A stretch of DNA of 59,121 bases, the filler included, from Squatina squatina (taxonomy: Eukaryota), in the NCBI GenBank assembly GCA_031763465.1. It is 4 parts of 4 records of this genome, joined end to end, with 100 filler letters (N's around TTAATTAATTAA, not from the genome) between each part and the next. Parts side by side here need not be neighbours in the genome. Positions count along the whole stretch, not along the records: positions 46,563 to 59,121 come from JARFOE010000013.1; 3 more parts are not named here. One strand, written 5' to 3'. The notes under the pieces are model-generated. The model was given only the letters and a program-made list of their open reading frames with translations, was not told the DNA's origin and made no database searches. Positions 41,831-57,960 of this stretch are shown piece after piece. Made by a program: the position numbers and the translations under genes. Within the stretch, counting starts at the first letter, position 1. Each line of letters opens with the position of its first letter.

Positions 41831-44800
41831 TAGATGCATCAAATTATGACAGCCTCTGATCGATATATTATAAGAATAAACGACTGTTTTTGAAACGTAT
41901 TTTACACTTTTGAAGACAGACAGTAAGGGCGTCATCATCGTACTAGTTATCCCGGCCTCACTGATAGATCGCTCTTTTTTACTTTTTAAGTAGTTCGTTT
42001 TTTTCCTGAGAAACTCAAATGAATCAACTAATTTCGAATCAGGCAACTGGTTTAAAGTGGGGTAAAATAGCTTCTTTATTGCCCTTTCGTTTCCCCATTT
42101 TATTTTTTGGTTAAAATCTGTAAAATTCCAAACTCCATTTTTGAGAGAGGGAGCAGTGGATAATCACTCAGCGGAACATACTGTGATAAAAATTCCACAT
42201 CAGTAATGTATTTAACTACCTAACATTGAATATATGCACACGGCTTGTTGTATTCGACGGTGTCGCGGTTATTGCAGCAAACTTCCACTTACTCTATTGG
42301 GCTGACGAACAGGACTGGAAACAGTCGGGACATTAAGCCATCAGGAGGCGCACTTATTCTCACTGTTCCTGGTGAGGGACACTCCCTCCAGCCTGCTTGT
42401 TGACAGCCACAGACTGGAATGGTATGGGTTCTAACTGCCCGGCTATAATCGTGCCACTGGGCTCCTGAAATCCTACAGCATTTAAGTAATAATCTTATAA
42501 TCACATGCTGACAATTCAAAGATGGCGTTACACACCCAAGAGCACACACACCAGAGATTAGATAGCGTAGCCTCTTTCGCCGAGTTCCCTCTTTCTCATC
42601 CACACCGGAGGGTGGCAAAGCGCACAGATAGGGATTAAGTCTTCAGCTGCTGGGCTGGATGGCTGACTTTACTAACTAAGGCACAAGCCTCATCAATGTG
42701 TTTTAAGGTGGCAGGAAGAGACGTCTAGACGGTGATGCAGATTGGGCAGACGGATTCACAGCTCTCATTCCCAGATGGTGCAAAATAAATGAGCCACAGT
42801 TGAGCAGGGGTATGAATCCGTTCAATCTCGTAAAACCAAGTGTCAGACGGAGGAAGCAGAAAGACGATTTCTGCACGGTTAAGAATTAATCAAAAAAGGG
42901 TCCAGCTTTCAACCTGCTGATATTAAATTCTACACAAAAGTCTTAAATCCTGGAACTTGCAAACAGCATTACAAAGGGAAGGTCGGCTGAGGCTGGATAA
43001 GACAGGGAGAAGACATTTTTTATTTAAATAAATTTTTTAAAAAGTTTTCCAACATAAAATCGACCCACTGACTTACACCTCAAGAAGATTGGGCTCCCTG
43101 AGAATATAAACTTCAGTTCCTGCCATGCAGATAAATCTACACCACTGCCAAAATATAGCCNNNNNNNNNNNNNNNNNNNNNNNNNNNNNNNNNNNNNNNN
43201 NNNNNNNNNNNNNNNNNNNNNNNNNNNNNNNNNNNNNNNNNNNNNNNNNNNNNNNNNNNNCCACAGATGCTGCCTGACCTGCTGAGTGTTACCAGCATTT
43301 TGTGTTTTTATTATAGCTGATCTCAGTTGGGGCAGCAGTGTGAATGTTGCAATTCCCTTCAGTGTCCCCATCTAAGGAGGGAATAAACCTGGTCAGGATT
43401 CATATTCCTGCCTGTTACTGAACAAACCGCTGGAATTTGGCGTTTGTGAATATCAGGCAATACCAGGTTTGAGCTTGGCTGCAGTGGCACTCACAGTCAA
43501 ACTCCCCACTGAAGCCTATCATCAGGTGAAGAATGGGCTCCTGAGTGAAACACTAGAGAGCTTCCACTACCAATGTAACCAGGACAAACCTACCCTCGGC
43601 ATCAGTTTATTACTTCAGGAAGTATGGAAAAACAAATAGATACACCATACATGACTATTGTAGAAATAACAGCACAAAGAAAAAAAAATTATAATTTATT
43701 TGGCTTGGTTTACAAAACATTACACTGGTTATGAACAGTTCTTAGCATAATTTTTCAATTTCACACTGAATTACAAATTTTTTTTTTTTGGTGAACACGA
43801 TTTTTTTCCCTGCAATAGTATTTCTCACTGATGGTGAGTTCCATTCCTGACAAAGTACAGAACGAGTTAAACATATGCTTCCCATTAAAAAGCAGCAGGT
43901 TTTCACGTGCCGTCCTTTGCTGGTTCGGCACACTGTATGAACAGCAATAGAGGAAGCAAGATGCTGTAACTTTATTTCAACTAATCATTCTTTTTGAAGA
44001 TTTGCTTAATTCAACTTCACAGCATTCAGAAAAAGGGGTCTACAGTTTCATTTTTTAAAAAAAAGATACAAAATGCAATTACATGGCTCATTGAATCAGC
44101 ATTCAGCACTGAACAGTGTTCTTTATATTGAAGTTCAGGGACTCTTTCCAACATACCATTTATGACAATACCTTTATCCAATATGCTCAATGTTATACAA
44201 AAATGTCAAGATTGCATAATTTAGGACAAGAGACATACATTCAAAGTGTTGAAATTTATGAGTGACATCAGAAAGTTCTTCAGGCACAGACTGAAATGGA
44301 ATGGACTGCCAGGTGAGTAAGTAAAGGCAAAAACCTTGGGAGTCATTTAAGAGGTGATTTGATGCTGTGATGGGGAGCCGGGACTGTTGGTTTTTCCAGA
44401 TGAGCCAAGATGGGCTGAAAGTACTTCCCTATCTATATTTATCTTGCGTTCTAGGATTTACATGTGGAATTTAAACAAGGTGAGTAAGGACTAAGCAGGG
44501 ACAAAGCATCTGAAACATGACAGCCACCTTTACAGACAGTGCAAAACATCCCATCGGCTATGATGCAGGACATCTAGGTTCCTTTACAACCAAACACAAA
44601 AAAGAGTGAGGGATCAGCACCTCATGTAGTTGTATTTATTCAAAGGAAAAAAGGAAAAATTATTCTCTACTTATTCATCATCACCCAGTCCATTAGTTCT
44701 TTCCCTTCATCTATTTTCCAGACTTCAAAGAAAGATTTCATTTTCTTCCTACAAGAAATAATAAAAGGGTGACAGATTGTACATGTGGCATTAAGATTTG

Positions 44801-46562: not shown

Positions 46563-47278
46563 GACCTGCTGAGTTTTTCCAGCAATTTTTGTTTGTATTC
46601 TAGATTCCAGCATCCGCAGTATTTCGCTTTTGTATCACAGTAATCTTTTTGAATTAAGCTTTTTTAACATTTCTTATGATAGTAAAACCAAGCAGATACG
46701 CTTGGTTTTAACAAGCATAAGAAATTTCAAGAGATCCCCAGCAGAAAGCTTTGCAAAAATATGAAAGATCTGTGATGGGGATGGGCTTCGCAGCTTCAGC
46801 GTTGGATCGCAAATGCCGGTTATGCAGGGTTACGATGTACAGCCCCATAACCGGCTTTTGCGATTGTCCCCGGGTGCGTGGGAACATCGCTCCCACCCGG
46901 GGACATCGCAATTTCATGGCCGTTGTCTTTAATAGTTCCCGTCTAGGACATGCAAGGATTTTGGCAGGCTGTGACAAGTGGCTTCATGCCACGTGGCTAG
47001 GAAGTGTGCAGGTGTGGACCACAGATGAGCACAGGATAGGGCTTGGCTCTGATGCCCCCACAATTAAACAACTTGCTGATACGCGCTGTCCAAGTTCAAA
47101 CATGAAAACTGGCCATCTGTGGAAGGTCATTTGTATCCTTAAGGCCCACAGTGAGGAGTCGACACCTTCAGGAGAGGAGATGGGGAAAGAAGGAAAATCA
47201 GCTAAGAAAGGGGGAGGAGGGGAACACACACACACCACACACAGTTTCACTACCATAAAAGTATTTCCTTAATGTTAC

Positions 47279-50347: not shown

Positions 50348-51020
50348 CTACCTCCCAGCCAGCCTCTCCAGTGCGGTGTCTACCTCCCAGCCAGCCTCTC
50401 CAGTGCGGTGTCTACCTCTCAGCCAGCCTCTCCAGTGTGGTGTCTACCTCCCAGCCAGCCTATCCAGTGCGGTGTCTACCTCCCAGCCAGCCTCTCCAGT
50501 GCAGTGTCTACCTCCCAGTCAGTCTCTCCAGTGTGGTGTCTACCTCCCAGTCAGTCTCTCCAGTGTGGTGTCTAACTCCCAGTCAGTCTCTCCAGTGAGT
50601 TGTCTACTTCCCAGTCAGTCTCTGCAGTGCAGTGTCTACCTCCCAGTCAGGGTCTCCAGCGCGATGTGTACCTCCCAGCCAAACTTTGAAGTGTGGTGTC
50701 TACCTCCCAGCCACTGTCTAAAGTGTGGTGTCTACTTTCCAGTCAGCCTCTCCTGTGCGGTGTCTACCTCCCAGTCAGTCTCTGCAGTGAGTTGTCTACG
50801 TCCCAGTCAGTCCCTGCAGTGCAGTGTCTACCTCCCAGTCAGTGTCTCCAGCGCGATGTGTACCTCCCAGCCAAACTCTGAAGTGTGGTGTCTACCTCCC
50901 AGCCAGCCTCTCCAGTGCTGTGTCTACCTCCCAGCCAGTGCGTCCAGTGCGGTGTCTACTTCCCAGTCAGCCTCTCCAGTGTGGTGTCTACCTCCGAGCC
51001 AGCCTATCTACCTCCCAGAT
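50348..51020. repeat. 32-bp minisatellite, about 21 units (CTACCTCCCAGCCAGCCTCTCCAGTGCGGTGT)
   Basis: Exact 32-bp period (50348, 50380, ...); the left end runs into a gap. Confidence 0.93.
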
Positions 51021-51270: not shown

Positions 51271-52308
<1,038 letters not shown>

Positions 52309-53559: not shown

Positions 53560-54319
53560 GAACGTACCAGGGACAGTGGGCCGGAGGAATGCGTCATGGA
53601 TATGGTGTACGCCAGAGTGTACCATTTGGTATGGCCACAGTCATCCGCTCACCACTCCGAACTTCCCTAGCATCGCTTCGAAGTGAACAGAGCAATGGCA
53701 CAATTCTACATGATATATCTGCAGATAGTCCAGCTGGTACAAGAGGTGGGTTTGTCCTCACATTTCACAGTGATACAGAATTAATGACTGGCAAGAAAAA
53801 GGGCTTTTTCAGAAGAGGATCACTCCTGGGAAATCTAAAGCTCAAAAGGTCCGAGTCCAAGTCATCCTTGGCTAGCAAACGTAGCTCTGCTCGGAGTGAA
53901 GCATCAATGAGTAGAATAAGTTCAGCAAATAGTGACGCCAATTCAACAATCAGTTTTGGAGAAGGTGATTCTGAATATTTACCAGTGGAAGACCATGTCG
54001 ATGCTACCACAACTGAATCATATACAGGGGAATGGAAAAATGATAAACGCAGTGGGTTTGGTATNNNNNNNNNNNNNNNNNNNNNNNNNNNNNNNNNNNN
54101 NNNNNNNNNNNNNNNNNNNNNNNNNNNNNNNNNNNNNNNNNNNNNNNNNNNNNNNNNNNNNNNNNNNNNNNNNNNNNNNNNNNNNNNNNNNNNNNNNNNN
54201 AAAAAACACCTTATACCCATCAGAACCAGCAAAATTAAAGAAAAAGTGGGGAGAGCGACAGAAGGAGCACATCGAGCAGCAGCAATTGCCAGAACAAAAG
54301 TGGATATAGCAGCTTCGAG
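53560..54319 (+). CDS. JPH1: Junctophilin-1 exon 2 (MORN repeats, joining region, helix start), with frame-preserving 136-N gap at 54065-54200
   Basis: GAAG|GA acceptor in phase with exon 1; [46 protein letters not shown]...[12 protein letters not shown]...[11 protein letters not shown] (JPH1-type); AG|GTGAGT donor. Confidence 0.95.
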
Positions 54320-57756: not shown

Positions 57757-57960
57757 TTATACAAACAGAAAATGCTGGAAAATCTCAGCAGGTCAGGCAG
57801 TATCTGTGAAGAGAGAAACAGAGTTAACGTTTCGGGTTGATGACCCTTCGTCAGAACTGAAAAAAGTTAGAAATATAGCAGGTTTTTAAGCAAGTGCAGG
57901 GCAGGGAAAGGGGGGAGGGGGAAGGAAAGAACAAAAGAGAAGGTCTGTGATCGGGTGGAC
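57757..57960 (-). mobile_element. Penelope-like element terminal repeat fragment (related pieces at 43261-43312, 46563-46635 and 38570-38740)
   Basis: AAATGCTGGAAAATCTCAGCAGGTCAGGCAG..TCTGTG..GAGAGAAACAGAGTTAACGTTTCGGG; its reverse complement recurs elsewhere in the window; contains a hammerhead core. Family assignment is inferred. Confidence 0.65.
57822..57858 (-). ncRNA. Minimal type I hammerhead ribozyme motif
   Basis: Minus strand AGUU-CUGACGA-A-GGGU(CAUCA)ACCC-GAAA-CG-UU-AACU: helix I AGUU/AACU, conserved core, 4-bp helix II, palindromic ACGU helix III, GUU cleavage triplet. Confidence 0.72.

What the first reader, a model, noticed from the sequence alone, without database searches (positions are those of the whole stretch)
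57822..57858. Intact minimal hammerhead ribozyme in a Penelope-like repeat, antisense within JPH1 intron 2
Seen: the minus strand reads 5'-AGUU CUGACGA A GGGU CAUCA ACCC GAAA CG UU AACU-3'. It has both core boxes (CUGANGA, GAAA), a 4-bp helix I, a 4-bp helix II with one extra A, and helix III reduced to the palindrome ACGU. Predicted cleavage is after GUU, between 57826 and 57825. Established: Penelope-like elements carry minimal type I hammerheads whose palindromic helix III is proposed to form through dimerisation. Inference: this abundant repeat family spreads self-cleaving RNA motifs through the genome and could generate processed or circular RNAs.
Basis: partly seen in the sequence, partly recalled or inferred. 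Interest (0 to 1): 0.72.

Follow-up and report, generated by a model that had tools for sequence, protein, structure and literature searches.

The report
Penelope transposon hammerhead in JPH1 intron
This is a real tiny hammerhead-ribozyme motif of an already known kind, carried by a 200-base leftover end of a Penelope-type jumping gene that lies backwards inside a junctophilin-1 intron, where it is likely inert; it is one of thousands of copies, many of which start at the motif's first bases and so were likely copied from uncut RNA.

Summary
The motif is as described at 57822-57858 (minus strand), predicted cut 57826/57825; a strict descriptor finds it once in the window and never in 300 shuffles. 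It lies in a 200-bp repeat with thousands of genomic copies. Overlapping copies show this repeat on both sides of an ORF with RT motifs, a CX4CxxC linker and GIY-YIG: the pseudo-LTR of a Neptune-type Penelope-like element, a published setting for minimal hammerheads (PMC4209133). This copy is solo, 5'-truncated and antisense to JPH1, so JPH1 pre-mRNA carries the non-catalytic strand; intron 2 is unproven because exon 3 is missing from the assembly. It lost the family's fifth helix II pair at a CpG. Its predicted fold pairs the catalytic box with the ACGU end (-8.5 versus -5.3 kcal/mol). Of 50 readable family copies, 23 start within -7..+2 of the core and 2 at the cut site, which argues for uncut templates rather than processed or circular RNAs. 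No activity or expression was shown. The scan noted this kind, including the fixed start, on other genomes. Verdict: real, new member of a known kind, low interest.

The parts
57822..57858 (-). Minimal type I hammerhead motif: 4-bp helix I, CUGACGA, extra A, 4-bp helix II with G10.1-C11.1, GAAA, palindromic ACGU, GUU site; predicted cut between 57826 and 57825
57759..57959 (-). 5'-truncated pseudo-LTR fragment of a Neptune-type Penelope-like element; ends at the first of the family's two 3' ends, without the further 35-40 nt tail; no target-site duplication found
57852..57861 (-). Position at which many family copies begin (-7..+2 of C3); reads as an initiator-like YCAGT and also as a 3' splice acceptor (CTAAC, pyrimidine tract, CAG). 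Candidate 5' end of the element RNA (inferred). This copy runs on 105 nt upstream of C3
   Evidence: the motif names are recalled
57838..57838 (-). G-to-A change at a CpG that removes the family's fifth helix II pair (C-G in 50 of 62 copies, C-A in 7 of 62)
51727..52105 (+). JPH1 coding exon 1 (MORN repeats); the end coordinate is estimated from the reading frame
53560..54319 (+). JPH1 exon 2, interrupted by an N gap, followed by a GTGAGT donor; the repeat lies 3.4 kb downstream on the opposite strand

Best explanation
The motif is the minimal hammerhead of a Penelope-like (Neptune-type) element's pseudo-LTR, left as a solo, truncated, slightly decayed copy antisense in a JPH1 intron, where it likely does nothing. 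Shown: motif, copy numbers, the repeat's place on both sides of an RT/GIY-YIG ORF (chained over several copies), orientation, decay. Inferred mechanism for the family: the element RNA begins at the hammerhead's first bases; as a monomer the core box UGACG pairs with CGUUA, extending helix II into an inactive rod; reverse transcription starts 70-110 nt further 3' at one of two tail ends and copies the uncut RNA, giving many 100-140 bp stubs that start at the motif and longer stubs, like this one, from the 3' pseudo-LTR. Cleavage would need a partner copy (ACGU:ACGU helix III) and probably the element's protein, and would happen only in tandem master transcripts. JPH1 pre-mRNA carries the reverse complement, which has no CUGANGA box.
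For: Family size: 1,076 exact 29-mer cores, 2,649 copies with core, helix II and inner helix I, 12,927 exact tail 21-mers, reversed controls 0 each. GIY-YIG upstream on the same strand (L021, PF01541 at 22.7 bits against cutoff 22.6); RT motifs, DKG and CX4CxxC linker; the same repeat runs into the ORF start in L151, L128, L142, L139. Neptune/Nematis linker, tail and inverted copies are as described in PMC8557442. Pair-preserving variation: position 10.1/11.1 is G-U 33, A-U 13, G-C 9, unpaired or gapped 7 of 62; innermost helix I pair U-A 34, U-G 16, C-G 2 of 61. Decay: G8 G>A 6 of 62, loop CpG C>T 10 of 62; 28 of 62 keep core plus ACGU, 11 of 62 fully intact. Folding: rod -8.5, open hammerhead -5.3 kcal/mol, open fraction 0.002 or less. 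5' ends: 23 of 50 readable copies at -7..+2, 2 of 50 at the cut site. Sense strand lacks the first box. In the anole Poseidon element the hammerhead needed protein, cleavage was dispensable for insertion, and no reads ended at the cut site (PMC11167929).
Against: No single locus holds the whole element; RVT_1 scored only E 0.21, below cutoff, so RT rests on motifs read by eye. Non-CpG core positions vary less than downstream ones (23/620 against 244/2406), which could mean selection, though subfamily differences and poly-T indels inflate the second figure. This copy belongs to the intact minority and keeps the canonical G10.1-C11.1 pair and the putative start site, so antisense transcription from it is not excluded. 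ViennaRNA ignores the core's non-canonical pairs and Mg2+. 40 of 90 sampled copies were cut off by N gaps, and about 40% of the next 60 kb is N, so a nearby partner could be hidden.
Confidence: 0.8

Rival explanations
1. One reading: dispersed copies are working self-cleaving RNAs that process host or repeat transcripts or yield circular RNAs (retrozyme-like).
For: Thousands of intact-looking cores; tandem type I hammerhead repeats related to pseudo-LTRs are reported in vertebrates, one chondrichthyan included (bioRxiv 10.64898/2026.07.22.740005); dimers of a Schistosoma minimal hammerhead cleave weakly (PMC4209133).
Against: Solo and antisense here, no head-to-tail array over it; single motifs showed no cleavage in PMC4209133; only 2 of 50 copies start at the cut site; computed double-hammerhead dimer -8.7 against -17.0 kcal/mol for two rods.
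Confidence: 0.1
2. This copy was co-opted as an antisense promoter or regulatory element of JPH1.
For: It keeps the family's putative start site and an intact core; the Drosophila Penelope pseudo-LTR holds an internal promoter able to drive neighbouring sequence (PMC2377424).
Against: It is 88-92% identical to ordinary copies and carries private and CpG changes; about one copy in six sampled is equally intact (11 of 62); with over 12,000 copies an intronic position is unremarkable.
Confidence: 0.05
3. The pile-up of 5' ends marks a splice acceptor (CAG|TT at -2) or a reverse-transcription stop rather than a transcription start; the short copies may also come from a separate non-autonomous master.
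For: CTAAC, pyrimidine tract and CAG precede helix I; in Drosophila virilis Penelope an intron ends at the 5' end of helix I (PMC4209133); the peak is at -3/-2.
Against: In copies with clear target-site duplications (L045, L046, L052, L065; L187, L226) the duplicated target abuts the motif or nearly so, and no shared upstream exon is seen; such duplications are a minority, so the test is thin.
Confidence: 0.3

Closest known systems
Minimal type I hammerheads (min-HHR) of metazoan Penelope-like element pseudo-LTRs (Cervera and De la Pena 2014, PMC4209133)
   Same: Both core boxes, short helix I, extra nucleotide between 9 and 10.1, G10.1-C11.1, palindromic 15.2-16.2, place in pseudo-LTRs, mostly solo dispersed copies; reported for Xena, Poseidon and Neptune elements of fishes.
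   Different: Helix II is 5 bp in this family (4 here) against 7-8 bp in the Schistosoma families; the site is GUU. No shark term was found in the two searchable supplements (one file was not searchable).
Neptune-clade EN+ Penelope-like elements (PMC8557442)
   Same: RT followed by CX2-5CxxC linker and C-terminal GIY-YIG with two cysteines between the motifs; DKG motif; pseudo-LTRs, optional tail, inverted copies.
   Different: No tree was built, so Neptune against Nematis rests on motifs and vertebrate distribution; no (TA)n target bias was evident in the copies viewed (not counted).
Poseidon element of Anolis (PAc; PMC11167929)
   Same: Hammerhead in the pseudo-LTR, two 3' ends a few tens of bases apart, genomic copies spanning the cut site.
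   Different: In PAc the ORF starts at stem II; here the likely start codon lies 134-146 nt past GAAA. Different clade.
Non-LTR retrozymes (bioRxiv 10.64898/2026.07.22.740005)
   Same: Type I hammerhead, non-coding, related to pseudo-LTRs.
   Different: Defined as tandem repeats with at least two complete hammerheads; this copy is a single truncated pseudo-LTR.

Membership tests
PLE minimal hammerhead (min-HHR) | CUGANGA and GAAA boxes plus NUH site | tested here: met
   GUU is listed as an active NUH site in PMC3138052
PLE minimal hammerhead (min-HHR) | Type I topology, helices I and II, extra nucleotide before 10.1, G10.1-C11.1 | tested here: met
PLE minimal hammerhead (min-HHR) | Helix III reduced to a palindrome | tested here: met
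   ACGU at 57830-57827; C in 53 and G in 49 of 62 copies
PLE minimal hammerhead (min-HHR) | Covariation in helices across the family | tested here: inconclusive
   Pair-preserving changes at one pair in each helix, but few subfamilies, so not independent events; other pairs vary only by decay
PLE minimal hammerhead (min-HHR) | Located in a pseudo-LTR flanking the ORF | tested here: met
   3' of GIY-YIG in L021 and others; 5' of the ORF in L151, L128, L142, L139
PLE minimal hammerhead (min-HHR) | Self-cleavage as dimer or with protein | not testable with these tools
   needs an assay
EN+ Penelope-like element, Neptune clade | C-terminal GIY-YIG with two cysteines between GIY and YIG | tested here: met
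EN+ Penelope-like element, Neptune clade | Penelope-type RT with DKG motif | tested here: inconclusive
   motifs seen by eye; Pfam RVT_1 only E 0.21 on a fragment
EN+ Penelope-like element, Neptune clade | CX2-5CxxC linker between RT and EN | tested here: met
   CX4CxxC in L072, L068, L085; feature from PMC8557442; shared with Nematis
EN+ Penelope-like element, Neptune clade | RT phylogeny groups with Neptune | not tested
   no named reference set was fetched
Non-LTR retrozyme | Tandem units with two or more complete hammerheads | tested here: not met
   one hammerhead in the window, none in the readable part of the next 60 kb, no array over it
Rfam hammerhead families | Gathering score | tested here: not met
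   expected for a motif without helix III

The most novel reading that the evidence does not exclude
In this Penelope family the RNA starts at the hammerhead's first bases and carries a built-in off switch: the catalytic box pairs with the palindromic cut-site strand, so the ribozyme stays locked until a partner copy or the element's protein opens it, and thousands of genomic stubs record reverse transcription of uncut RNA from start site to tail.
Probability: 0.35. Interest if true: 0.5.

Novelty: new member of a known kind. Interest (0 to 1): 0.2.

Why it matters
The copy itself matters little. The family offers a cheap handle on an open question, what the hammerhead does for Penelope-like elements (PMC8557442 calls its function unclear): sharp copy ends locate the likely RNA start and the two reverse-transcription starts, and the predicted core-sequestering fold gives a testable reason why such motifs are silent alone and need a partner or protein.

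Tried and rejected
Rfam: no hammerhead family. Folding stability is no support: z -1.11, 27 of 200 shuffles fold as well. Expression: no RNA holder listed; three runs laid were contigs of guessed type, none spanning the locus; in X3 loose ends at 57857 (7 contigs) and 57859 (9 contigs) match the copy-start hotspot, but contigs cannot show a start, so this is not counted. Exon 3 of JPH1 was sought by short recalled motifs, frame listing and tblastn and not found; the only exon-3-like hit is on another scaffold (C162) and resembles JPH2. Target-site duplications: 9 of 39 copies had a shared word of 7 or more, but only L187 and L226 look real; none for this copy. The 30 exact-core loci and the 30 loci most like this copy were left out of intactness and end counts because they were selected on the motif. 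The Fisher test on G8 assumed a denominator that was not checked; only raw counts are used. Lunse et al. (RNA Biol 14:1499) is not held; I saw only its citation in PMC6765202. Searches for a prior shark report and for copy starts at the hammerhead found none, but subscription papers, Repbase and bioRxiv supplements were not visible. No look-alike by sequence among earlier scan notes.

Full report
Observation. Six loose two-box matches exist in the window; only this one satisfies a descriptor with 4-bp helices I and II and an NUH site, and 300 shuffled windows gave none. Rfam has no match to a hammerhead family.

The repeat. Window 57759-57959 is a repeat: 40 of 6,094 candidates were scored, the 39 other than itself 88-92% identical. 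Exact counts in the 1.5-Gb assembly: 1,076 for a 29-letter core, 2,649 for a degenerate core with helices, 7,166 for the two boxes with a variable gap against 269 for the reversed control, 12,927 for a 21-letter word 3' of the motif. The host is probably a cartilaginous fish; this is a recalled resemblance, echoed by earlier scan notes, and was not tested.

What the repeat belongs to. Longer copies run upstream, on the hammerhead's strand, into a GIY-YIG domain (L021), a CX4CxxC linker and RT motifs (L072, L085), and a DKG motif (L107 and others). Walking on, four copies (L151, L128, L142, L139) show the repeat or its tail running into the ORF's 5' part. So the repeat flanks the ORF on both sides: a pseudo-LTR. 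The chain is pieced from overlapping copies, all broken; Pfam RVT_1 was weak. The linker points to Neptune or Nematis (PMC8557442, passages). Two 3' ends 35-40 nt apart and inverted pieces match the published tail and inverted arrangements. This copy stops at the first end.

Host gene. A junctophilin lies on the plus strand; the best solved structure is JPH1, and the top and fifth representatives are named JPH1 or junctophilin-1-like. Exon 2 ends at 54319, exon 4 starts about 7 kb past the motif, and the last exon follows. Exon 3 is not in the assembled sequence, so the intron is 2 or 3; four of five gaps lie downstream, which favours 2. The piece holding the motif is bounded by gaps, so its place depends on scaffolding. 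JPH1 RNA would carry the reverse complement, which lacks CUGANGA. No second hammerhead was found in the window or in L031-L036, of which 24,225 of 60,000 bases are N.

State of the motif across copies. Of 179 loci chosen by ORF sequence or by the downstream 21-mer, 109 aligned (106 distinct) and 62 span the core. 28 of 62 keep core and ACGU; 11 of 62 also keep four pairs in both helices (49 retain the 5' strand of helix I). Common variants fall at N7, loop II and pair-preserving positions (10.1/11.1: G-U 33, A-U 13, G-C 9; innermost helix I pair: U-A 34, U-G 16). Non-CpG core letters differ in 23 of 620 cells against 244 of 2,406 downstream, consistent with constraint on master elements. CpG decay hits catalytic G8 (6 of 62) on the same scale as the loop (10 of 62), consistent with neutral decay after insertion. 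This copy has lost the fifth helix II pair by such a change, as 7 of 62 have.

Folding. The predicted best fold pairs UGACG of the core with CGUUA at the cut site (-8.5 kcal/mol) instead of leaving the core open (-5.3); the open form has 0.002 or less of the ensemble in three contexts. A double-hammerhead dimer scores -8.7 against -17.0 for two rods. Among 43 family copies the median probability of the C7-G rod pair is 0.67. These models omit tertiary contacts and ions.

Copy ends. I took 90 of the first 100 listed places of the 21-mer (5 skipped because already held as exact-core loci, 5 not fetched; 89 of 90 on one scaffold). 40 were cut by N. Of 50 readable, 11 ran 104 nt or more upstream, 23 began at -7..+2 of C3, 2 at the cut site, 14 elsewhere; p about 1e-17 against uniform ends, and 20 of 29 against 1 of 29 without inverted copies. 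Templates therefore spanned the cut site and often began at the motif. A transcription start is my preferred reading (the Drosophila pseudo-LTR holds the start and an internal promoter; PMC2377424, abstract and passages); a splice acceptor is the rival. This fits the anole Poseidon result that cleavage needs protein and is dispensable (PMC11167929, passages and part of the main text).

Comparison with print. Minimal hammerheads in fish Xena, Poseidon and Neptune elements, mostly solo, silent as monomers and weak as dimers, are described in PMC4209133 (parts 1-2 of 4 and two supplements seen). A 2026 preprint reports tandem retrozymes in one chondrichthyan (part 1 and passages; supplements closed). 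PMC6765202, PMC6155905 and PMC3138052 were seen as passages. Searches found no paper on this family or on copy starts at the hammerhead. Earlier scan notes, read after my end count, report the same kind and the same fixed start in other genomes (157 findings, at least 24 genomes); they are unchecked and not independent support.

Verdict. Real motif, known kind, likely inert at this place; interest 0.2. The family-level end pattern and the predicted lock are the testable extras.

Noticed in passing
window 50348-51005: 32-bp minisatellite, 20.6 copies, about 700 bp upstream of the JPH1 start codon, followed by a 33-bp array at 51357-51493.
   Followed up: no
window 46563-46639 and 43261-43312: Two further fragments of the same family, tail part only, each beside an N run or joint, without the hammerhead.
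   Followed up: partly
L067:780-1359: Internally deleted element: tail joined almost directly to GIY-YIG and then a shortened pseudo-LTR; L080, L081, L085, L090 and L092 share the shortened 3' region.
   Followed up: no
L151, L142 and window 57759-57880: Several pyrimidine-tract-AG sites in a row on the element strand: before helix I, 25 nt past the cut site (whose GUURAC also reads as a branch-point-like word), in the tail, and just before the likely start codon. A 5' UTR intron is known in other Penelope-like elements.
   Followed up: no
G000:C5:3563259-3563320: Two hammerhead cores back to back on opposite strands, 7 bases apart; inverted junctions are common in the family (10 of 39).
   Followed up: no
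L068 upstream of its GIY-YIG match: Open frame with an RRM and zinc-knuckle-like stretch resembling RBM4 (name recalled).
   Followed up: no
G000:C16:16679351-16680130 and C162:5832267-5832431: Other junctophilin paralogue exons.
   Followed up: partly
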